A DNA stretch of 64,000 bases. It comes from Escherichia coli phage Shin27. Below are positions 5,726-38,230 of the stretch, piece after piece (within the stretch, counting starts at the first letter, position 1; each line of letters opens with the position of its first letter). Under the pieces are notes generated by a model. It had not been told where the DNA came from. It searched no databases and was given only the letters and a program-made list of their open reading frames with translations. The DNA is taken from the sequence record LC788709.1, one strand, 5' to 3'. The translations under genes and the position numbers were made by a program.

Positions 5726-8575
5726 TTAAATAGATGCCCAATCCACAGATTGCTCGCCATTATCACCTTCTGCTCTTATACGGAAGCGTAACTTCCTATT
5801 AATACCTAGAGCATCCTCGTTATGAAGAGCATAGTCTGCCTTATTGTATATCAGTAGATAATCGTAGACATACTGATCTTCAATTCGTACACTTCTTAAT
5901 AAACGATCTAGGTTATCGTAGATTTCGAGAGTGTAGAAGATTCCATCAATAATATCTTCTTCTGGAATTCTATCCCAGGCCAACTTAACGTCTGGTCCTA
6001 CAAACTCCGATGCATCTCCTGAAGCTGTGTTAGTAACCCTGAAATTACTAACGACGCTTAAGTTTTTAGCAGAGTTAAGTTCTACCGATAGTGTTACAGG
6101 AGAACTTCGTCTACCATTAATATCTACAGCTCTAATCTCAAAGACTGCTAAACCAGCAGGTTCTCCAATAATTTCTTGGATCATTCGTAGATTTGGATTA
6201 GTTTCTAGTTGCTGTACTATATAAGGATCAGCATGCCCAGAGTGAACGATGGAGTAATAAACAACGTTATTAGTTAAGCTAGGAAGCCAAGATAGCTCAC
6301 CATTCTTACCAATAGATCCTACTTGTCCACCAGGTGTTGGTGTATACATAAAGTCTCTAGGAGGCAGTACGTTATTACTAACATCAGGAATATCATTACC
6401 ACTATTATCTACCTGTTCAGAGTTAATAAATACATCTTCTCCATACTCTTGTAGAGTAATATTAATCTTGCCTTCTCTTGAGTTCTCAACCTCATCTACT
6501 AGGAAGTATTTCTTATTCCACCCATAACGGTCATAAGTAAACGCTACTGGATCGTTGGGTTCAATACCAATGAAATGGTAAGGTAGAGAGAAAGATAGAG
6601 TTCGAGAGTAACGAGACTTTTTAAGTTCTCTATCAGCAAAACTACGTGCAGTGTAGTAGTTAGTAATGTTTGCAAAGGATAATTGCAGCTTTTTATCTAA
6701 TCCTTTATCCTGCTCTTTAAATATAGAGTTAAAGAATGTAATGGAGTTAGTTTTCCAGCTTAATGCGGGATCTAGTATAGAGGCTTGTACTGAGTTAAAC
6801 TTATTTCTACCAGTAGTATCTGATAGCTCCAGATCACCATAGGTATCTAAGAAGTCAATCTCTAATGGGGTGTTTGAGAACTTCTCAACAGTTATTCTAT
6901 ACTGTCCAGATAAGTTGTTGATAGCACCGCCATAAGACTCTATTAATCCCTGCACGTTTTTAAATACTGACTCAGAGGTATCGAGAATAGTATTCATTTG
7001 AACTATTTGTCTATTCTCTCCTACAGCATCAGTCCATCCAACGTATCTCCAGTAGGGCTGCCAAGAAACCTGATAGGATTCATCAATGATATCCAGGATA
7101 GCTGCTTCTTGAATAAGTTGCTGGAGAGGGAACTGATCAATAGTGATATTAGCACCGTAGCGGTCAGAGGTTAGGTAGTCCAGAGTTTGCCAGATACCAT
7201 TTAAGCTAGTCTTATCAGCAGTTACTCTACCATCTGAATGATAGATCTTAATCTTCTTACCTTGAACTTCAGCGCTAACTTCTGGAATTTCTGTTCTGTT
7301 TTCATTAATAGTAAAGCGAACAATAGCATAAGCAGTATCTAACAGTTTATAACGAGTGTCCCAGTATTCCGGTCCATTCTCATTCATGTTCTGTAGATAG
7401 AAACCTTTCTCTTTTGCAATGTTAACTAGAACATCAGCAGCAGATTGATCAGCCTTACCATGATAAGTCCAGATACGGATATCGCCATTACCATCATTAT
7501 ACTTATATTCCTGTCCATGAACAGAAGGTTCAGAGCTTGGTTGACCAGAAGCAATACGTTGCATGGTATCGCCAGCTACTTTCTTAGTACCAAAGCAAGT
7601 ACGAGACTTACTATCATTAGGATCAATACAGATCATTGGTACATCACCAAAGTAAAAATCTAGGAACCCATCAATCTCACCCTCACAGAAAGCGTATACT
7701 ACATATACGATATTAGGATTATGCAGTTCAGTATCTGCAAATACTGGGACTCCAGGAATTTTCTGAACTCCATATACTACTGGCAGGAATTTAGCAGCTA
7801 AGTTAAAATCAAGATCTACTTCCTTAGTTACAGTCTCATAGTATTTCTTTAGGCTATAGCTTCTAGAAAGACCAAATAACTTTTTCTTAGATTGTAACTT
7901 ATAACGTTCTTCCTGAACCTGATACTTAGCAAGAATAGAAATACTCTTGTTAGCATGAAAGAATCCGTAGTCCTCTTGATATTCAGGTCGTTTAGCACCA
8001 TTAGATGGAACTAATTGGCCAGCAACAATCTCAAGTCCCCTATGGTCAGCATCATCTGTGAAACGTCCGTTTACTCTATCAAAGTCATAGAATTGGTTTG
8101 AACAGTTCCATGTAATAACAGATGTACTAACTCCAGAAGTACCAATGTTATCCTTAATACCACCACCAGTGATTTTACCACGGAAGTAAAGTAAAGGACC
8201 ATTAGTATCTGGATCTACAGGAAGAATGTTACCTTCTTCATCAATAACCGCTTGATGGATTGAAATAGATCTATCTAGGAAGGATACACCATTTTGGACT
8301 AGTTTTAATACTTCATCCTCAGCAGTACCTGTGATAGTAAAAGAAAGGCTACCAATGGAAAGTTTTCTATTTTGTTTATGTGTTGTTATAGACTTAACTT
8401 TACCGGATGTGTAAAGAATACCATTATAAATTACATCCCTAAAATAGTCTGTAAGATAAATGTACGCAGAACTTGATCCGGTAGAGCTTGGCAATTCAAG
8501 AGTAATAAGGCATGCAGTTTTTATTTTATTATTGGTTCTTAGATACTCTCTTGCACTGTCAAGAATTTTCTTCAT
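5726..8575 (-). CDS. baseplate hub protein (T5 pb3-like)
   Basis: 949-aa ORF following the distal tail protein; size and position match T5 pb3 as recalled. Confidence 0.6.
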   Translation of the reverse strand: MKKILDSAREYLRTNNKIKTACLITLELPSSTGSSSAYIYLTDYFRDVIYNGILYTSGKVKSITTHKQNRKLSIGSLSFTITGTAEDEVLKLVQNGVSFLDRSISIHQAVIDEEGNILPVDPDTNGPLLYFRGKITGGGIKDNIGTSGVSTSVITWNCSNQFYDFDRVNGRFTDDADHRGLEIVAGQLVPSNGAKRPEYQEDYGFFHANKSISILAKYQVQEERYKLQSKKKLFGLSRSYSLKKYYETVTKEVDLDFNLAAKFLPVVYGVQKIPGVPVFADTELHNPNIVYVVYAFCEGEIDGFLDFYFGDVPMICIDPNDSKSRTCFGTKKVAGDTMQRIASGQPSSEPSVHGQEYKYNDGNGDIRIWTYHGKADQSAADVLVNIAKEKGFYLQNMNENGPEYWDTRYKLLDTAYAIVRFTINENRTEIPEVSAEVQGKKIKIYHSDGRVTADKTSLNGIWQTLDYLTSDRYGANITIDQFPLQQLIQEAAILDIIDESYQVSWQPYWRYVGWTDAVGENRQIVQMNTILDTSESVFKNVQGLIESYGGAINNLSGQYRITVEKFSNTPLEIDFLDTYGDLELSDTTGRNKFNSVQASILDPALSWKTNSITFFNSIFKEQDKGLDKKLQLSFANITNYYTARSFADRELKKSRYSRTLSFSLPYHFIGIEPNDPVAFTYDRYGWNKKYFLVDEVENSREGKINITLQEYGEDVFINSEQVDNSGNDIPDVSNNVLPPRDFMYTPTPGGQVGSIGKNGELSWLPSLTNNVVYYSIVHSGHADPYIVQQLETNPNLRMIQEIIGEPAGLAVFEIRAVDINGRRSSPVTLSVELNSAKNLSVVSNFRVTNTASGDASEFVGPDVKLAWDRIPEEDIIDGIFYTLEIYDNLDRLLRSVRIEDQYVYDYLLIYNKADYALHNEDALGINRKLRFRIRAEGDNGEQSVDWASI

Positions 8576-29041: not shown

Positions 29042-30706
29042 TTATGCAAAGAATTTACCGTTTTTGAAATCAATCAAAGTACGTTGCCCGTTTGCATAGG
29101 TAATTAAATGCGTTTGCGTCCAGCTTGACGCGCCCACGTTGTAGCCCATATCAAGGGAACCAGCAACGCCAGCGGTATAAACGCCGCCGTAAATGCTAGC
29201 CGTGTGAGTGTGACCAGTGTTAAGGCGTCCCAACTTTTTAAACTGCTTAGGATTGCCCCGACTGCCGTTAATGCCATTGTGACCATGTACGCCGCATTCA
29301 ATGCCAGCGATTTTAAAGGACTGGTCAGTAGTCAAAAAAATGGCGTTAAATTCGCATCCTGCAACGTTTCTAAGCGCATAATCTAACACGTTAAAGGTAT
29401 CATCCTTTTCAGCAATAGCGGCGTAAATCGCAGCGTTTAGACGGTGATACAGTTCCGCGTTTGCGGGATCATCTTTAATGTTTGCGTTACGATCATCTAA
29501 CCAGCGGGATAATGCTAAATCATGGTTAGATTCCACAATGATTGTTTGACTAAAATCACGTTCCATAGATTCTAATACGCGTCCAGTATCGATAAGATCA
29601 TCAATAACTTTATCACGTCCGGCGGCGTATTGTTTCGCAAGGAATACACCACTAGCGCGGTTATGATGGTTACGCGATGTAAAATCATGCACGTCATGAA
29701 TAAATTGATATTTCGGTTTAAGAATATCAAGCAAGCTGTTTTCACTAGCCCATGAAGCGACGGCGCAATCATCATCTAATTTTTCGGCGTGAATATCGCC
29801 ATATTGCAAGCCTAGAACATGATCGGACGTTTCAAAACATCCGGTAGGCATAGCGCAAACATTCAAATCATAGAACATTCCGCTTTCATCCATTGTTTCA
29901 ATCTGGCGAGCATAAAATTCGCCGTCGTCGTCGAACTCTACCAGCAAAGCGCCATAATTATGTAAAGCCTCAGCTTTTTGACCTGCTTTCTGCTGAATGT
30001 AGTTTTTAAGCGTAGCCGTTCCGGTTGAATACATACGGCACACTACTTCACCTTTTAACGCTGGCACACTTTCAGCGGTAATTTTAGCGTGACCAATTGC
30101 CAGACCTTCAATATTTAAAGCCGTGGCGGTTTCTGCGAATCCTGAAAGCGGGTAATCTGCCGTTGGTAAAACGTTAATTTCAGCCATGAAAGCAAAGCGG
30201 CGGTTATTTAAAAATACGTTTTTATCACAAACATATTTATCAAATGCGGGATCGTATTTAATACCGTTTGCCCCTTCCCCGTTCTGAAATCCGTTTTTGT
30301 TGTAAATGAATTTGCTAACAAGTAATTCAGCGCCGCAATATTCAGCGAATTTTTCCAGACTTGCTAAAAAGTTTTTATGCGGGAAAGTATTATTTTGAAT
30401 CGACGTTAGAATAAAACGGCGACCGGACTTAACTTCCCATTGCTCAACGGTGCTAGAAACAATTCCCGCCGCCTCTGGGCGATCATCGTTTTTAATCGCC
30501 TTTTCGGCTTTTGCCGCTTTCGGTTTCGCTGGTTTATTTGCTTCCAGCCAGTCACAAATTGCGGTCGAATGTTTCGGCGTACCATAAACAGCTTTTGAAA
30601 TATCGTCGCAAACTTCCAATTTAGTAGCGCGTAAACGCTTACCGTAGAAGTTAAAATCTGCGGCCATTTTCAAAATTTGAGCTTGTTTTTCTGCGGAAAT
30701 ATTCAT
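29042..30706 (-). CDS. A1: metallophosphoesterase, T5 A1-like (host DNA degradation / second-step transfer)
   Basis: 554-aa ORF with calcineurin-like motifs (GDIHAE, NHD, GHTHT); size matches T5 A1 as recalled. Confidence 0.65.
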   Translation of the reverse strand: MNISAEKQAQILKMAADFNFYGKRLRATKLEVCDDISKAVYGTPKHSTAICDWLEANKPAKPKAAKAEKAIKNDDRPEAAGIVSSTVEQWEVKSGRRFILTSIQNNTFPHKNFLASLEKFAEYCGAELLVSKFIYNKNGFQNGEGANGIKYDPAFDKYVCDKNVFLNNRRFAFMAEINVLPTADYPLSGFAETATALNIEGLAIGHAKITAESVPALKGEVVCRMYSTGTATLKNYIQQKAGQKAEALHNYGALLVEFDDDGEFYARQIETMDESGMFYDLNVCAMPTGCFETSDHVLGLQYGDIHAEKLDDDCAVASWASENSLLDILKPKYQFIHDVHDFTSRNHHNRASGVFLAKQYAAGRDKVIDDLIDTGRVLESMERDFSQTIIVESNHDLALSRWLDDRNANIKDDPANAELYHRLNAAIYAAIAEKDDTFNVLDYALRNVAGCEFNAIFLTTDQSFKIAGIECGVHGHNGINGSRGNPKQFKKLGRLNTGHTHTASIYGGVYTAGVAGSLDMGYNVGASSWTQTHLITYANGQRTLIDFKNGKFFA

Positions 30707-30814
30707 AACTAAATCAACTCCTATAAAGGGATAAATATTAATACTGGCAATATTGCCAAATATAACGCCTTGCCTGAAGTGAGGACAATTTAAAAGGCGT
30801 TATAATTTGCAATA

Positions 30815-31060
30815 TTATTCTAGAATTGGCATAAGACTAGAACTAAAACCGCAACTAATAGCCAGCGTTAAAAATATAATCGCTAGATATTTTTGTTTAT
30901 TAGCTTGACGTTTAAACATATCAGCGGCATAAGCTGAATTAATGCCGATAATAGAGATTATATATTTGCCGTAATTAAATATAAATATAGCGGCAACTAT
31001 AAATAAACCTAAAATAAACGCTTCACTAGGGAAGAAAATCATTTTAATAACTCCGGTCAA
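30815..31060 (-). CDS. small membrane protein
   Basis: 81-aa ORF with two predicted TM helices. Confidence 0.4.
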   Translation of the reverse strand: MTGVIKMIFFPSEAFILGLFIVAAIFIFNYGKYIISIIGINSAYAADMFKRQANKQKYLAIIFLTLAISCGFSSSLMPILE

Positions 31061-31100
31061 AGGGAAATTATAGCGGGGAATATTCCCCGCTAATTAGAAT

Positions 31101-31517
31101 TTATTCACCTGCGGCCTGTTTTACTTCCTCCGCTACGCCTAACAATTGCGCTACGGCGTCCAGCGTTTCCAGTTTAGCACTTTCAAGGCTTGCCAGATCG
31201 TCGGCATCTTTTACGATACCTGAATCAATGGCGTGTTTAGCGATGACGCGCACATAGTGAGCTTTACGAATTGAGCTACCGCCGCCAACTTTGCGAGGTT
31301 TATCGCTTTTCTGATAGGCTTTTGCGCTTGTCAGTTTAGAACGTACAGACACCGGACTAGCAGCACCAACGGCGGCGGCAATTTCTTTCAGGCCGTCACT
31401 GTTAGCAAATTCACTTCCGCTTTTAGCGACCATTTCAGAATACATAGAAACAGCTTTTTCGGTGTTTTCTTCGTTCCAAGAGAATTTTGCGGTTTTTTCG
31501 GTTTTAACGTTAGACAT
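31101..31517 (-). CDS. hypothetical pre-early protein (possible A2 equivalent by size and position)
   Basis: 138-aa ORF immediately upstream of A1-like gene. Confidence 0.35.
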   Translation of the reverse strand: MSNVKTEKTAKFSWNEENTEKAVSMYSEMVAKSGSEFANSDGLKEIAAAVGAASPVSVRSKLTSAKAYQKSDKPRKVGGGSSIRKAHYVRVIAKHAIDSGIVKDADDLASLESAKLETLDAVAQLLGVAEEVKQAAGE

Positions 31518-32433: not shown

Positions 32434-32840
32434 ATCGTCGATTCCTTATAATATCTAAGTTTACCGCCGATAGGCTTTAAGATGTTCCCTAATTTTTAAA
32501 GAGCATGGCAGGGTTTTGAAAGGTCAAACAGACTGTCAATCGCTGTTATCCCCGCCGTGTAGTTCGTCATTGCCGCCCTACGTGATAAATAATAGGAGAA
32601 TACCGAGAAGGGCGCAAGCGTATTTTTGTAAAGAAACGTAAAGAAAACCACTACTCGCAAACGTCCAGCGGCGCATTAAATTTAATGAAACGGGCGCGCG
32701 AATAACACCAAAACAACCATTTTAGCAAGTAATTTTTTTCATTTATATTTGCTTTGCCATACTTGACAAAATCTAAAATCCTCGTGGTGAGGTTTTCTCG
32801 GTGTATCCCTTATGATTGCCTATCCTTTCCTTTGAGGCGC

Positions 32841-32867
32841 TTAGAATGCGTTACAGAGCGTTTTAGA
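32841..32867. repeat. 27-bp exact direct repeat, copy 1
   Basis: TTAGAATGCGTTACAGAGCGTTTTAGA identical to 37085-37111. Confidence 0.8.
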
Positions 32868-33185
32868 CCCTGTTAATAACTTATACAAAAAGCAAAAATG
32901 AAATTTAATGAGTTATCCACTTGATTTTTCAAAAAAGTATTTTCTGCTGTTATTTTTCATTGACAAATAAGTTTAGACGTGCATTTATTGGTTAGCAGAC
33001 TAATAATCGCTAGGAGGATAATCACGCTGGTGGATTGTAACAGCCGAAACAGTTAGCGGACTATTAATACTTTAAAAACCTATTAGCCAACTAACTATTT
33101 CATAATATATAATATACACATAAATTAATGAGAAATAATAACTATGAGAAACTATCGGGCTAAGTGAGAACCACTATCATTTAGG

Positions 33186-33255
33186 TTATGCACAAAGCTA
33201 TCCACAGCACAAAATAACTTGACGCAATAGGCGACGTTTTGGCGACTTATCCACA
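33186..33255 (+). promoter_or_regulatory. DnaA-box cluster
   Basis: TTATGCACA 33186-33194, cTATCCACA 33198-33206, TTATCCACA 33247-33255. Confidence 0.5.
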
Positions 33256-33295
33256 GACTTATATACAGGTTATCCTACTGTATAAATATACAGGG
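33241..33295. repeat. inverted-repeat arm L (DnaA box + LexA-like box)
   Basis: TTATCCACA at 33247-33255 and TACTGTATAAATATACAG at 33276-33293; reverse-complement partner at 37141-37205. Confidence 0.65.
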
Positions 33296-33543
33296 TAGAA
33301 TGGTAGCAGTAACAACCGCAATCAAATTTAAGCGGCCTAGAACGCGCTACACGGCGTTTTCTCACTGCTACCCTTATTATAATAAAGCCTTGTGTACGCT
33401 TACAGAGAGCTAGAAATAGAAAACGCGCGATTATCATAAAAACGGGCAGTAGGCAAGGAATAAAAAACCTTTTCTTTTTTTCTTGCCCCTAGCGAACAAT
33501 TATCTATATCATTCACTCACCGATTAACGAGGGAGACAAAGAA

Positions 33544-34545
33544 ATGTCTACTGTAAGAATTGCAGTACCAGCAAACGCAACTATTATTAAAGGTAGTTTG
33601 CGCAACCTGCTAGATGGTAGTAGTGCGGCAAGTATTCAGCACACCGCCGCAATGGTTGAAAAAATTCACGAGGATATTTTAGATAATAATGATACTCATT
33701 ATTCAGTCGATGATTTCACGCTATTACTAGACCAGACAAGGGCGCTAGTAATTTTCAACCGTGATTATCACATTTTCCGTAATAGTCAGGGAACTGATAT
33801 TGATTTTATCATTGTTGGTTATAGTGAGTCTCATAGTGGTTACATTGCGCGATTATATAACGTGCAAGAAAAAGAGCAGGTAACAGCAACAAAAGTAAAT
33901 AATATCAGATTGGATAGTGTCGGATCGTTATTAAATAGTATCTGGCGTGAATTATCATCCAGTTATAAAGGTGCTGATAGTGACGCAATCGAAACAACTG
34001 GCGTATTGTGCTTTGAACGCGCTAGCGGTAACATGTTGATCCCTAACGATTATTTAGAGTATGGGAATGAATCAAACGTTGCAAACGCTGGATTTACACT
34101 TTTACCGCTTGACAATGTAGCAAAACAGGCTGTAAACTCTCAAACTTCAAGCGCAAATGCGCAAACTACTGAAAATAAAGGAAATATTATGTCTAAAGTA
34201 TCTTCTATCGTTGCCGCTAATAAATCCGCCGTTGTTAACGCTGCTAAACTGGAAGCGGGTAAAATTGCACTGACTCAAATCACAAAAGTAGCGGCGAAAA
34301 AAGCGCCGTTTATGATTAAAGGTTATATCGATACGCCGATCGGTCGCGTAGTGATCGCTAACCTGTTAAGCGTAGCGGTTGACCAGTACGCCCCGACTAA
34401 TGCGAAAGCGAAAGCGGTAGCAGGCGCGGCAATGGAAGCGGCAATGCTGGAAATGGTACAGAGTTTCAATATTGCGGAAATGATCGATGAAATGGTAAAA
34501 GGTATTGACATTTCTACTTTTACCACTAACACCGAAAGTGAGTAG
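33544..34545 (+). CDS. hypothetical protein, first gene of plus-strand pre-early cassette
   Basis: 333-aa ORF with GAGGGAG RBS; Ala/Lys-rich C-terminal half; no recognisable motif. Confidence 0.55.
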   Translation: MSTVRIAVPANATIIKGSLRNLLDGSSAASIQHTAAMVEKIHEDILDNNDTHYSVDDFTLLLDQTRALVIFNRDYHIFRNSQGTDIDFIIVGYSESHSGYIARLYNVQEKEQVTATKVNNIRLDSVGSLLNSIWRELSSSYKGADSDAIETTGVLCFERASGNMLIPNDYLEYGNESNVANAGFTLLPLDNVAKQAVNSQTSSANAQTTENKGNIMSKVSSIVAANKSAVVNAAKLEAGKIALTQITKVAAKKAPFMIKGYIDTPIGRVVIANLLSVAVDQYAPTNAKAKAVAGAAMEAAMLEMVQSFNIAEMIDEMVKGIDISTFTTNTESE

Positions 34546-34612
34546 TAATAACTAGCGGGGATTATTTCCCCGCGTTACTATTTCCCTGTTAATTGTTAGG
34601 AGACTACTTATT

Positions 34613-36284: not shown

Positions 36285-36632
36285 ATGGTTATTTATGAGG
36301 GTAATCGCTTTGTTACTAATTGCCGTCCGGCATTATTAGCAAACTATTTAAATCAGCTTTCCCCTGTTTATAAAGGCGTGGTTAACATCTATGAAGGCAA
36401 AGCGCACTATAGAATTAATGCCGTTGTCGCTCGCGAGCTTGCCTTTCAGTTTCTTACTTTTAACTCATGCGATATTCAGGTTATGGGTGAGTCTTTGATT
36501 GCAGAAAATGAAGATGAATTTATTAACATTTTCCGCAAAGTATGTACAGAGCGCCTGATTATGAAAGGCGCATATATTCAATCAACCGCTGATAGTATTG
36601 AAACAGCGTTTCGAAAAATTGTAAATGAATAG
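36285..36632 (+). CDS. hypothetical protein
   Basis: 115-aa ORF with TAGGAG RBS. Confidence 0.5.
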   Translation: MVIYEGNRFVTNCRPALLANYLNQLSPVYKGVVNIYEGKAHYRINAVVARELAFQFLTFNSCDIQVMGESLIAENEDEFINIFRKVCTERLIMKGAYIQSTADSIETAFRKIVNE

Positions 36633-37140: not shown

Positions 37141-37205
37141 TACTGTATATTTATACAGTAGAATAACCTGTGGATAAGTCAGTGGATAACGCCTCAAAAT
37201 CGCTA
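37141..37205. repeat. inverted-repeat arm R (LexA-like box + DnaA boxes)
   Basis: TACTGTATATTTATACAGTA at 37141-37160, TGTGGATAA at 37169-37177. Confidence 0.65.
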
Positions 37206-37251
37206 GGATTTTGTCAAGTCAAATCGTGCTGTTAATAAACCTGTGGATAAC
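37169..37251 (-). promoter_or_regulatory. DnaA-box cluster
   Basis: reverse complement of TTATCCACA at 37169-37177 and 37243-37251, near-match at 37181-37189. Confidence 0.5.
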
Positions 37252-37269
37252 TTAAATAGCAGTGTTTCT

Positions 37270-37420
37270 CACTTCGCTTTCTAAATGCGAATCATTCTCA
37301 TTATGCGACTCATTCGTATTCAATTCTGTAAATGATAATCATTCCCATTCCACTTTCTAAATGCGAGTAGTTCTCATTCGCATTCAACTTCTCAAATGCG
37401 AATCAATCTCATTATCAGTT
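37270..37420. repeat. three copies of ~25-bp motif (CTTTCTAAATGCGAATCATTCTCATT family)
   Basis: copies near 37277, 37344, 37385. Confidence 0.6.
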
Positions 37421-37463
37421 GCATTTCGGCAGGCAGGGCATTTTCTATTTGCCCTGCGCTTTT

Positions 37464-38065
37464 GTGCAAATCCGACATCTGCCCCCACGGATTACGTGCC
37501 AGCGTGCATGTGCGAATCCGACAATTTTTGGTAGTGTGCAAATCCGATGGGAAATATTTTTTATATGTGCGAATCCGACAATGAATTTTCCTAAAAACTC
37601 CAGCAATCCGCAACTGCGATGCAATCCAGCTGGATTTACTAGAGTATGCGCAAATCCGACATGAGTTTATTTGTGCAAAACCGACAAGATTTTTGTGACT
37701 TCGATGAGAGGGTGTGTGATTGTGAGGGTTTGGGGAGAAGTGCGAATCCGATGAGATTTTGGGAGGAACTACGGAAGGAGCAGCGGTGATGGTGCTTTAG
37801 CACCGGTTTGCTGCATTTTTGAGGATAATGCGGGATGTTTTGGCTAGAATTGAGATTAGGGGAGATAAAGCGAAATTTTATTAGCAAAATGGGGCAAAAT
37901 CGCTTGACAAGTGAAAATTCCTGTGGCTCTAAAAAACTCAGGCAAATATGGGCCTTCGGCCCGAAATAATGCTGCTATTTTCAGTGTTCCTAAAAACTTT
38001 GGAGACTCCTATCAATGTGCAAATCCGACCATAAATTTCTAGAAACACAGTGTGCAAATCCGATA
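37464..38065. repeat. dispersed array of ~10 copies of 14-bp motif GTGCRAATCCGAYR
   Basis: copies at 37464, 37510, 37538, 37567, 37648, 37673, 37740, 38017, 38052, degenerate at ~37603; irregular spacing. Confidence 0.75.
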
Positions 38066-38230
38066 GCAATTTCCAGAAATGTGTTTTGGAAAAATGTCTC
38101 CTAGAAATAACCGCCCTCCCTATAACCGCCCTGTATTAAACCGCCTATTGCTGGAGTTTCTAGGAACATGAAAACCGCCTGAGTTGGCGAGAGTTTTCCT
38201 AGAAACTTAGGAGTCTACTAGAAAGTGTTG
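38030..38230. repeat. cluster of TTCTAGAA-type palindromes and AACCGCC repeats
   Basis: TTTCTAGAAAC, TCCTAGAAA, TTTCTAGGAAC, TTCCTAGAAAC plus four AACCGCC copies at 38100-38170. Confidence 0.6.

What the first reader, a model, noticed from the sequence alone, without database searches (positions are those of the whole stretch)
33544..34545. Largest cassette protein (333 aa) with no recognisable motif
It is the first and longest ORF of the plus-strand cassette. The N-terminal half looks globular and the C-terminal half is Ala/Lys-rich and predicted helical. I cannot match it to any family by eye.
Basis: seen in the sequence. Interest (0 to 1): 0.5.

Follow-up and report, generated by a model that had tools for sequence, protein, structure and literature searches.

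The report
T5.011-type toxic pre-early phage protein
The 333-aa ORF is the ortholog of phage T5 pre-early gene 011, a host-toxic protein of unknown mechanism, and it seems to be a nested gene whose conserved 118-aa helical C-terminal module is shared by hundreds of other phage proteins and is probably also made on its own.

Summary
The ORF is real: ATG 33544, a strong Shine-Dalgarno (SD) ribosome-binding site, a conserved promoter and a terminator. The window comes from a T5-like Epseptimavirus. The ORF is the ortholog of T5.011, which is Pfam DUF7566 and the first gene of the rightward pre-early operon on first-step-transfer DNA.

Published work shows T5.011 is dispensable, toxic to E. coli and disturbs the nucleoid. 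Its function is unknown.

New here:
- **Three parts.** An acidic alpha/beta N-domain (1-189, dN/dS ~0.27), a disordered linker, and a 118-aa helical C-domain under extreme purifying selection (dN/dS 0-0.04). Neither domain matches a PDB fold.
- **A widespread module.** The C-domain occurs in about 730 clusters (50% identity), always C-terminal, behind at least 55 unrelated N-terminal regions (HIRAN in 24 of 134). It is stand-alone in several phages.
- **Signs of internal expression.** A conserved Met (M216) with an upstream SD and unstructured mRNA marks its start family-wide. T5-like phages also carry a conserved sigma70-like promoter and a trough of synonymous variation there.

So a nested 12.3-kDa product is likely but unproven, and a synonymous-recoding test was negative. 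The mechanism (DNA- or nucleoid-directed host takeover) is inferred. The database label "DNA N-6-adenine methyltransferase" is unsupported.

The parts
33483..33512 (+). Promoter of the rightward pre-early operon, equivalent to T5 P11. The -35 is TTGCCC (33483-33488), the spacer is 18 nt, and the -10 is TATCAT (33507-33512). An A/T-rich tract lies upstream.
   Evidence: Consensus scan. The -35, -10 and the whole 5'UTR are conserved with T5, STWB21 and 26175I. T5 carries an annotated promoter at the equivalent place, 6411-6489. P11 transcripts were shown by primer extension in T5 (PMC7472727).
33529..33535 (+). Shine-Dalgarno GAGGGAG of the full-length ORF
   Evidence: Sequence. Duplex energy with the anti-SD is -8.5 kcal/mol. 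Invariant in T5-like relatives.
33544..34545 (+). Full-length ORF of 333 aa and 35.9 kDa, the ortholog of T5.011 (DUF7566). The stop is TAG at 34543-34545.
   Evidence: It is 100% identical to a hypothetical protein of Escherichia coli phage Shin27 (P0001).
33544..34110 (+). N-domain, aa 1-189: acidic (pI 4.8), alpha/beta, fast-evolving and lineage-specific. The hallmark motif is KGxLRNLLDG (aa 16-25), and D87 is invariant.
   Evidence: AF2 pLDDT 80-94. It is 40% identical to T5, with dN/dS 0.25-0.29. No PDB fold match. Not HIRAN (hhalign probability 0.1).
34111..34188 (+). Disordered inter-domain linker, aa 190-215. It carries nucleotide-level conservation.
   Evidence: pLDDT below 50. dS is 0 among three Epseptimaviruses whose N-domain dS is 0.6-1.0. 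A trough of synonymous differences is seen at aa ~188-211 in both the Epseptimavirus-like and the Tequintavirus-like sets.
34109..34138 (+). Internal sigma70-like promoter candidate: -35 TTGACA (34109-34114), an 18-nt spacer, and -10 TAAACT (34133-34138).
   Evidence: It scores 10 of 12 and ties for the best + strand match in 5 kb. TTGACA is present in 19 of 25 distinct T5-like genes. The TAnnnT frame of the -10 is visible in the 24 sequences that align there (L063 does not), although the encoded middle residue varies. It is not found in non-T5 lineages. It has not been shown experimentally.
34178..34182 (+). Internal Shine-Dalgarno core AAGGA, 6 nt upstream of ATG 34189
   Evidence: Sequence. 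Energy is -5.6 kcal/mol, in the top 4% of positions in the gene. ACTGAAAAyAAAGGAAA is nearly invariant in 25 T5-like genes. An equivalent SD is found in 15 of 20 independent fused lineages.
34189..34545 (+). C-domain, aa 216-333, and the putative nested product of 118 aa and 12.3 kDa that would start at M216. It has a basic first helix (+6), a hydrophobic helical core and an acidic tail (-5).
   Evidence: AF2 pLDDT 92 and pTM 0.72. It is 90-97% identical to T5, with ordinary synonymous divergence and dN/dS 0-0.04. It is a widespread module.
34555..34573 (+). Terminator-like hairpin GCGGGGATTATTTCCCCGC directly after the ORF
   Evidence: T5 has an annotated putative rho-independent terminator at the same place, 7534-7559.

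Best explanation
The ORF is the Epseptimavirus ortholog of phage T5 pre-early gene 011. It is the first and most promoter-proximal gene of the rightward operon on the first-step-transfer DNA, so it is made in the first minutes of infection.

It is a modular host-takeover protein:
- **N-domain.** A fast-evolving, acidic, lineage-specific domain that probably provides target specificity.
- **Linker.** A flexible stretch of about 25 residues.
- **C-domain.** A 118-aa helical domain that is almost frozen in sequence. This domain is an autonomous phage module. Other phages encode it alone or fuse it behind dozens of unrelated N-terminal domains, most often the DNA-3'-end-binding HIRAN domain.

I infer that the gene is nested. 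Besides the 36-kDa protein, ribosomes start at M216 (SD AAGGA 34178-34182, ATG 34189). In T5-like phages an internal promoter (34109-34138) may also feed this start. The result would be a free 12.3-kDa C-domain.

I further infer that free and fused C-domains assemble together. In that model the conserved module acts as an oligomerisation or effector platform, and it brings the variable N-domains to a conserved host target connected with DNA or the nucleoid.

What is shown: orthology, genomic position, domain structure, selection pattern, module distribution, and the sequence signals. Toxicity, the nucleoid phenotype and dispensability are taken from the literature on T5.011. What is inferred: use of the internal start, co-assembly, and the DNA-directed target.
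For: **Orthology and synteny.** The DNA is 97% identical to Epseptimaviruses. The ORF is the same gene as T5.011 by tblastn and alignment. A1, A2, P11, the terminator and the iss (injection stop signal) repeats are in the same order as in T5. A Proteus Novosibvirus and a Klebsiella T5-like phage have a similar layout.

**Family.** DUF7566 at E=1.9e-140.

**Two modules.** AF2 models. N-domain dN/dS is 0.25-0.29 and C-domain dN/dS is 0.00-0.04, with dS of 0.2-0.9, so the C-domain's conservation is selection and not recent transfer.

**Module distribution.**
- A profile search found 730 clusters. In the 147 of the 150 listed that a C-domain model matched, the match ends 0-26 residues from the protein's C-terminus.
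- The N-terminal regions fall into at least 55 BLAST groups.
- HIRAN occurs in 24 of 134 members, and ExoX-like_C in 1.
- True stand-alone genes lie inside long contigs: L020/L041, L029, L031, L038, L044 and L084.

**Internal start.**
- A Met lies at the domain boundary in 135 of 147 representatives.
- An SD with dG <= -5.4 is present in 15 of 20 dereplicated fused lineages, against 9.5% of control positions (P=4e-12). In 19 of 20 lineages the mRNA around that ATG is among the least structured in the gene.
- Stand-alone homologs start at the same Met with strong SDs.
- T5-like phages show a synonymous-variation trough at aa 188-211 in both clades, together with a conserved TTGACA-18-TAnnnT and an invariant AAAGGAAA.

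**Literature.** T5.011 is toxic (PMC8201957). It is toxic and dispensable, and gives elongated cells with uneven DAPI staining. The wild-type gene could not be cloned, whereas a synonymous recoded gene could. That fits an internal expression signal in the native DNA (bioRxiv 10.64898/2026.04.02.716235).
Against: **No direct evidence of a 12-kDa product.** I found no proteomic, Ribo-seq or TSS data for T5.

**The synonymous-recoding test was not significant.** Fisher P was 0.46. The SD-likeness is therefore carried by the K/E/G amino acids of the linker, which could be selected for protein reasons.

**Other weak points in the internal-start case.**
- A-rich linker codons would by themselves lower mRNA structure.
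- Five of 20 fused lineages lack a good SD.
- The internal promoter is a 10/12 consensus match with an 18-nt spacer, and it is confined to T5-like phages.
- Low synonymous variation in the linker could reflect a recombination junction between shuffled modules. Two C-domain alleles are seen behind similar N-domains.

**The target is not established.**
- The DNA-directed target rests on fusion partners in other phages and on one microscopy phenotype in T5.
- The window's own N-domain is acidic and is not HIRAN.
- No oligomer prediction could be run.
- The gene is naturally deleted in DT57C and Gostya9.
Confidence: 0.55

Rival explanations
1. There is a single product only. The gene makes just the 36-kDa two-domain protein. 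The boundary Met, the SD-like purine run, the open mRNA and the promoter-like hexamers are by-products. They could come from a flexible K/E/G/T/N-rich linker, be fossils of an old fusion of two genes, or belong to a conserved junction used for homologous recombination between modules.
For: The recoding test found no excess SD strength beyond what the amino-acid sequence dictates. The linker is low-complexity and disordered. Module shuffling is visible, because similar N-domains carry two different C-domain alleles joined at the conserved QTSSANAQTTENKG stretch. Five of 20 lineages lack a good SD. All 'stand-alone' clusters I first saw were contig-end truncations.
Against: A Met has no obvious structural role at a linker-domain boundary, yet it is kept in 135 of 147 representatives behind unrelated N-termini. 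The signals persist across old divergences: T5, Epseptimavirus and Klebsiella T5-like phages have N-domains 35-40% identical. The -10 keeps TAnnnT while the encoded residue changes. Genuine stand-alone genes start at exactly this Met. Native T5.011 could not be cloned but recoded 011 could.
Confidence: 0.3
2. A specific mechanism: protection of DNA ends, or inhibition of RecBCD. In this reading gp011 would be the unassigned pre-early function that shields incoming linear T5 DNA from host exonuclease. The acidic N-domain would act as a DNA mimic in T5-like phages, HIRAN would bind 3' ends directly in other phages, and the C-domain would multimerise them.
For: FST genes of T5 and BF23 are reported to protect against RecBCD, with no gene named in the passage I read (PMC10644984). 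HIRAN is the commonest fusion partner (24 of 134). The N-domain has pI 4.8. From general knowledge, not tested here: heterogeneous nucleoids, mild elongation and plasmid-cloning difficulty resemble the effects of RecBCD loss or Gam expression. The T5.011 phenotype itself comes.
Against: No similarity to Gam, gp5.9, Abc2 or any DNA mimic appeared in the fold searches. The gene is dispensable on laboratory recBCD+ hosts and is naturally absent from DT57C. The argument is purely circumstantial.
Confidence: 0.12
3. The free C-domain is the unidentified 11-kDa pre-early polypeptide that co-purifies with host RNA polymerase, and it modulates transcription.
For: Early studies found pre-early proteins of 60 kDa (A1) and 11 kDa with RNAP, and the 11-kDa species was never assigned to a gene (PMC7472727). 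The predicted nested product is 12.3 kDa.
Against: Several other pre-early ORFs have a similar size. A modern RNAP purification recovered A1 and gpT5.026 but no such protein. A DNA-end-binding HIRAN fused to an RNAP binder is hard to rationalise. No AsiA-like or Rsd-like fold match was found.
Confidence: 0.06
4. The protein is a DNA N-6-adenine methyltransferase, as many UniRef and GenBank entries call members of this cluster.
For: The name appears only as given by sources for close homologs, for example phage STG2 and many UniRef clusters.
Against: No methyltransferase family was hit in Pfam, NCBIfam or PHROGs. No (D/N/S)PP(Y/F/W) motif is visible on reading the sequence. No Rossmann-type methyltransferase fold match was found. 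T5-like phage DNA actually lacks Dam methylation (PMC10644984).
Confidence: 0.01
5. The protein is a virion or scaffold-like protein. Two records label homologs 'putative virion structural protein' or 'putative capsid protein', and nested C-terminal products are typical of protease/scaffold genes.
For: Annotation of HMD-P3 and Uniso31 homologs. There is a formal analogy with lambda C/Nu3.
Against: The gene lies in the pre-early FST operon, which is expressed before the rest of the genome even enters the cell. It is dispensable and naturally deleted in some phages. Its neighbours in other phages are early or metabolic genes, not morphogenesis genes.
Confidence: 0.02

Closest known systems
Phage T5 gene T5.011 (gp011; Pfam DUF7566, phrog_4263)
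   Same: It is an ortholog. It has the same length class (333 vs 336 aa) and the same position as first gene after the P11 promoter, followed by a terminator, in the terminal-repeat FST DNA. The two-domain layout is the same, and the C-domain is about 95% identical.
   Different: The N-domain is only about 40% identical. The window lacks the HNH gene hegG that precedes 011 in T5. Toxicity and the nucleoid phenotype have been shown only for the T5 protein.
Nested in-frame genes of phages that yield a C-terminal domain as a second product (filamentous phage gene II/X, phiX174 A/A*, lambda C/Nu3, T7 4A/4B). Recalled from established knowledge.
   Same: There is an internal SD and ATG in frame at a domain boundary. 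The predicted short product equals the C-terminal domain of the long one. Homologs of the short product exist as separate genes.
   Different: No sequence or fold relationship. Here the short product has not been demonstrated. The same C-module is combined with dozens of unrelated N-domains, which those systems do not show.
HIRAN-domain proteins (Pfam PF08797; the DNA 3'-end-binding module of HLTF-type proteins)
   Same: HIRAN is the commonest N-terminal partner of the same C-domain in other phages (24 of 134). This suggests that the family works on DNA ends or forks.
   Different: The window's N-domain is not HIRAN: there is no Pfam hit and hhalign probability is 0.1.
T4 Ndd and other early phage nucleoid-disrupting or host-takeover toxins (functional analogy only, from general knowledge)
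   Same: An early, non-essential, host-toxic protein that perturbs nucleoid organisation (the T5.011 phenotype).
   Different: No homology. The phenotype of 011 is mild (uneven DAPI staining, slight elongation). The molecular target is unknown.

Membership tests
T5.011 / DUF7566 family | Full-length match to the family profile | tested here: met
   PF24450 at E=1.9e-140, residues 1-333 against profile positions 1-336. phrog_4263 at E=1.4e-159.
T5.011 / DUF7566 family | Position: first gene of the rightward pre-early operon in the terminal repeat, between the A2-side divergent genes and the injection stop signal, preceded by P11 and followed by a terminator | tested here: met
   A1 and A2 lie at 29042-31517 on the minus strand. 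The promoter and 5'UTR are conserved with T5. The hairpin is at 34555-34573 and the iss-type repeats at 37.2-38.3 kb.
T5.011 / DUF7566 family | Toxicity to E. coli and nucleoid disorganisation on ectopic expression; dispensable for infection | not testable with these tools
   Shown for T5.011 only (PMC8201957; bioRxiv 10.64898/2026.04.02.716235).
Nested in-frame gene (internal translation start) | In-frame ATG with a Shine-Dalgarno at proper spacing, conserved across relatives | tested here: met
   AAGGA at 34178-34182 and ATG at 34189. Found in 15 of 20 independent fused lineages against a 9.5% control rate, P=4e-12.
Nested in-frame gene (internal translation start) | Selection acting on the nucleotide sequence beyond what the protein requires | tested here: inconclusive
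   For: dS is 0 in the linker, there is a synonymous trough in both T5-like clades, and TAnnnT is kept while the residue varies. Against: the family-wide synonymous-recoding test gave P=0.46.
Nested in-frame gene (internal translation start) | The short product exists in cells | not testable with these tools
   No Ribo-seq or N-terminomics for T5 was found. Stand-alone homologous genes do exist.
DNA N-6-adenine methyltransferase (database label of homologs) | SAM-binding Rossmann fold with motif I and catalytic (D/N/S)PP(Y/F/W) motif IV | tested here: not met
   No methyltransferase profile was hit. No such motif is visible on reading the sequence. No methyltransferase among the fold matches.
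HIRAN domain proteins | Match to the HIRAN profile in the N-terminal region | tested here: not met
   No PF08797 hit for the window protein. Profile-profile probability is 0.1. HIRAN is present only in paralogous fusions.
Known anti-phage defence or counter-defence protein families (PADLOC models) | Match to a PADLOC profile | tested here: not met
   0 families for the window protein.

The most novel reading that the evidence does not exclude
The C-terminal 118 aa would be a previously unrecognised, autonomous early-protein module of virulent phages. It is present in about 730 sequence clusters at 50% identity and nearly absent from cellular genomes. It would be expressed both free and fused from nested genes. 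In T5-like phages it would even have its own promoter and ribosome-binding site buried in the linker of gene 011. The free and fused forms would co-assemble into a platform that delivers interchangeable N-terminal 'warheads' (HIRAN, the T5-type acidic domain and dozens of others) to one conserved host target on DNA. This could account for one of the unassigned T5 pre-early functions, such as protection of phage DNA from host or phage nucleases.
Probability: 0.3. Interest if true: 0.7.

Novelty: new member of a known kind. Interest (0 to 1): 0.5.

Why it matters
T5's two-step DNA injection makes its pre-early genes a classic model of host takeover. Several pre-early activities still have no gene assigned: protection of phage DNA while host DNA is destroyed, resistance to RecBCD and restriction, and blocking of host methylases.

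Gene 011 is one of the few toxic pre-early genes, and the 2026 preprint says it "resists functional predictions".

Three results give the first concrete handles for experiments:
- The protein is built from a hyper-conserved module that is shared by hundreds of phage proteins.
- That module is repeatedly fused to a DNA-end-binding domain.
- It probably has its own expression signals inside the gene.

The obvious experiments are to express the halves separately, look for the 12-kDa product, and pull down partners of the C-domain.

The analysis also offers an explanation for why the native gene cannot be cloned. It flags a mis-annotation (methyltransferase) that has spread through UniRef. If the nested-gene reading is wrong, the finding is an ordinary ortholog of a known hypothetical phage protein.

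Tried and rejected
- **Sequence search of the PDB** with the C-domain profile found nothing.
- **Family libraries.** NCBIfam and PADLOC gave nothing for the window protein. PHROGs gave only families of unknown function.
- **HIRAN in disguise.** I tested whether the T5-type N-domain is a divergent HIRAN and rejected it (hhalign probability 0.1).
- **Short 'stand-alone' clusters.** I had taken P0132, P0187 and P0270 as evidence of free C-domains. They are contig-end truncations, some at a 15-nt tandem repeat in the linker. Only ORFs inside contigs with an upstream stop were kept.
- **Synonymous-recoding test** for SD selection was negative. An earlier count of GGR glycine codons at the motif (6 of 6 against a 33% background) is suggestive, but the sample is small and was chosen after the fact.
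- **Internal promoter outside T5-like phages** was not found.
- **Flanking genes of stand-alone C-domains** are not homologous to the N-domains of fused members. Their neighbours (DUF3310, ThiF-like, TROVE, SNF2, PDDEXK) show no consistent pattern.
- **Collection scans.** The scan with the broad C-domain alignment failed for lack of a conserved stretch. Narrower pattern scans recover only part of the family, so 'absent from bacterial genomes' (1 MAG contig) is a weak statement.
- **Older literature.** Three papers (Davison 2015; McCorquodale 1977 and 1981) are not held in the library.

Full report
**What is there.** The ORF at 33544-34545 (+) is real. It has an ATG start, with GAGGGAG nine bases upstream, and encodes 333 aa. 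No competing ORF longer than 69 aa overlaps it on either strand. It is the first and longest ORF of a + strand block running from 33.5 to 37.0 kb.

**Where the window comes from.** The surrounding DNA is 96-97% identical to Salmonella/Escherichia Epseptimavirus genomes of the Demerecviridae, the T5-like phages. The protein is 100% identical to a hypothetical protein of Escherichia coli phage Shin27.
- The neighbours are the T5 pre-early genes A1 (29042-30706, minus strand) and A2 (31101-31517, minus strand).
- Downstream lies a repeat-rich non-coding region like the T5 injection stop signal.
- In the annotated T5 genome, the equivalent gene is T5.011. It encodes 336 aa and is the first gene of the rightward pre-early operon in the terminal repeat, the part of the genome that enters the cell first.
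- The promoter (-35 at 33483-33488, -10 at 33507-33512), the 5'UTR and the SD are conserved with T5. This promoter, P11, was verified in T5 by primer extension (PMC7472727).
- A hairpin follows the stop codon at 34555-34573, where T5 has an annotated terminator.

**Family and literature.** The protein matches Pfam DUF7566 end to end (E=1.9e-140) and phrog_4263. Both families have unknown function.
- T5.011 was one of three of 13 tested T5 genes found toxic in E. coli (PMC8201957).
- A 2026 preprint confirmed the toxicity and showed that genes 011-017 are dispensable. It described slightly elongated cells with uneven DAPI staining.
- The same preprint reported that the wild-type gene could not be cloned, whereas a synonymous recoded version could. 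It stated that 011 "resists functional predictions".
- The gene is naturally deleted in DT57C and Gostya9.
- The label "DNA N-6-adenine methyltransferase" carried by many database entries has no support. No methyltransferase profile, motif or fold was found.

**Anatomy.** AlphaFold2 gives three parts:
- a confident alpha/beta N-domain (1-189, pLDDT 80-94);
- a disordered linker (190-213);
- an all-helical C-domain (216-333), predicted at pLDDT 92 and pTM 0.72 once a deep alignment is used.

The N-domain is acidic (pI 4.8). The C-domain has a basic first helix (+6), a hydrophobic core and an acidic tail (-5), and this charge pattern holds across 135 family members.

**Two very different evolutionary regimes.** Against T5, the N-domain is 40% identical and the C-domain is 90-97% identical. 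Codons for identical residues differ about as often in both halves. dN/dS is 0.25-0.29 for the N-domain and 0.00-0.04 for the C-domain, with dS of 0.2-0.9. The C-domain's near-identity is therefore due to extreme purifying selection on the protein and not to recent DNA exchange.

**The C-domain is a widespread module.**
- A profile search of 1.84 billion representative proteins found 730 clusters at E <= 1e-3. Most of the 150 listed match only the last ~120 profile positions.
- In the 147 of those 150 that a C-domain model matched, the match ends 0-26 residues from the C-terminus of proteins of 84-544 aa.
- The N-terminal regions of the listed representatives fall into at least 55 BLAST groups. 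The two largest are the T5.011 type (25 members) and a HIRAN type (26 members).
- Pfam finds HIRAN in 24 of 134 members and ExoX-like_C in one.
- The module occurs in T5-like phages of Klebsiella and Proteus at the same pre-early position. It also occurs in jumbo phages of Vibrio and Acinetobacter and in many metagenomic phage contigs, among early or nucleotide-metabolism genes.
- A limited pattern scan of 185,579 prokaryotic genomes returned only one MAG contig.
- Genuine stand-alone C-domain genes exist inside long contigs. They have an upstream stop codon and a strong SD of their own.
- Several short "stand-alone" clusters turned out to be contig-end truncations and were discarded.

**Evidence for an internal start.** In 135 of 147 representatives a Met lies within a few residues of the start of the C-domain. 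It is preceded by a K/Q/T-E/G-x-x motif, whatever the N-terminal domain.
- At the DNA level this motif is an SD core 5-10 nt from the ATG. In the window it reads AAGGA at 34178-34182, followed by ATG at 34189.
- Among 20 dereplicated fused lineages, 15 have an SD duplex energy <= -5.4 kcal/mol, against 9.5% of control positions in the same genes (P=4e-12).
- In 19 of 20, the 60 nt around the ATG are among the least structured stretches of the gene.

**Further signals in T5-like phages.**
- The 26 linker codons show dS = 0 among three Epseptimaviruses whose N-domain dS is 0.6-1.0.
- A sliding profile over 26 distinct genes shows a trough of synonymous differences at aa 188-211 in both the Epseptimavirus-like and the Tequintavirus-like sets.
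- That stretch contains a sigma70-like promoter (TTGACA at 34109-34114, 18 nt, TAAACT at 34133-34138). It scores 10/12, tying for the best + strand match in 5 kb.
- Across 25 distinct genes, the -35 is TTGACA in 19. The -10 keeps TAnnnT in the 24 sequences that align there (L063 does not), while the encoded middle residue changes (N, P, Q or R). ACTGAAAAyAAAGGAAA is nearly invariant.
- The reported failure to clone native T5.011, but not a recoded copy, is what such an internal expression signal would predict.

**Evidence against an internal start.**
- A synonymous-recoding test shows no SD strength beyond what the amino acids dictate (Fisher P=0.46).
- A-rich linker codons would lower mRNA structure anyway.
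- Five of 20 lineages lack a good SD.
- The promoter-like site is confined to T5-like phages.
- The conserved linker could be a recombination junction, since two C-domain alleles occur behind similar N-domains.
- No experimental data on translation or transcription starts in T5 were found.

I therefore rate the nested 12.3-kDa product as likely but unproven.

**Mechanism.**
- *Shown here:* orthology, position, expression signals, modular structure, selection pattern and module distribution.
- *From the literature on T5.011:* toxicity, dispensability and the nucleoid phenotype.
- *Inferred:* the conserved C-domain is an assembly or effector platform made both free and fused, the variable N-domains provide specificity, and the target is DNA-related. 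The DNA link rests on the HIRAN and ExoX-like fusions and on the nucleoid phenotype.

More specific readings are possible but only circumstantial. One is protection of phage DNA ends against RecBCD, a function that has been attributed to the FST genes. Another is identity with the unassigned 11-kDa pre-early polypeptide associated with RNA polymerase.

**Verdict.** The ORF is a new member of a known family of unknown function. The nested-gene signal and the breadth of the C-terminal module are new, testable leads.

Noticed in passing
window 32913-33255 (+) and 37169-37250 (-): DnaA-box sequences (TTATCCACA) cluster on both sides of the + strand cassette in opposite orientation. All three perfect matches in the 64-kb window lie in these two clusters, with near-matches beside them. 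The window-wide count is not above chance; only the clustering is notable. This matches the DnaA-box repeat regions discussed for T5 two-step injection.
   Followed up: partly
window 37253-38205: A repeat-rich non-coding region sits where T5 has its injection stop signal. It holds 8 copies of an 18-nt unit (TGTGCRAATCCGACA core) at 37462-38067, three 50-nt repeats at 37253-37413, and a 23-nt inverted repeat at 37585-37607 and 38147-38169.
   Followed up: partly
window 34246-34310 (aa ~235-255 of the ORF): A second trough of synonymous variation lies inside the C-domain coding region (0.03-0.09 against a typical 0.15-0.45). It is seen within Epseptimaviruses and between clades. It is close to a G+C-rich inverted repeat, CGGCG-AAAAAAG-CGCCG, at 34292-34308. 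It is unexplained.
   Followed up: no
L082 1-60 and L083 1-70 (Tequintavirus-like metagenome contigs): The linker of some T5-type 011 genes contains 3-4 tandem copies of a 15-nt unit AACACTCAAAGCGTT (NTQSV). Assemblies break there. Gene callers then report the C-domain as a separate 118-aa protein starting at the internal ATG.
   Followed up: yes
window 32460-33540: The divergent intergenic region upstream of the ORF has no ORF over 55 aa. T5 carries the HNH homing endonuclease hegG (T5.010) between T5.009 and T5.011, so the endonuclease is absent here.
   Followed up: partly
database entries for homologs (for example Salmonella phage STG2 and many UniRef clusters): The name 'DNA N-6-adenine methyltransferase' has spread through this family without any supporting domain. 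Two other records call homologs 'putative virion structural protein' and 'putative capsid protein'.
   Followed up: yes
L003 2483-6194 (Vibrio phage 2.275.O) and L049 6143-6853 (Acinetobacter phage ME3): In two unrelated jumbo phages the C-domain gene lies near metallophosphoesterase or 5'-3' deoxyribonucleotidase genes. These are the same enzyme classes as T5 pre-early A1 and dmp. Other loci do not show this association.
   Followed up: partly
window 36285-36632 (+): A 115-aa ORF matches phrog_4379. By position it corresponds to T5.015, the protein described in PMC8201957 as the Ung-dependent nickase. The NC_005859 record instead puts that product name on T5.014.
   Followed up: no
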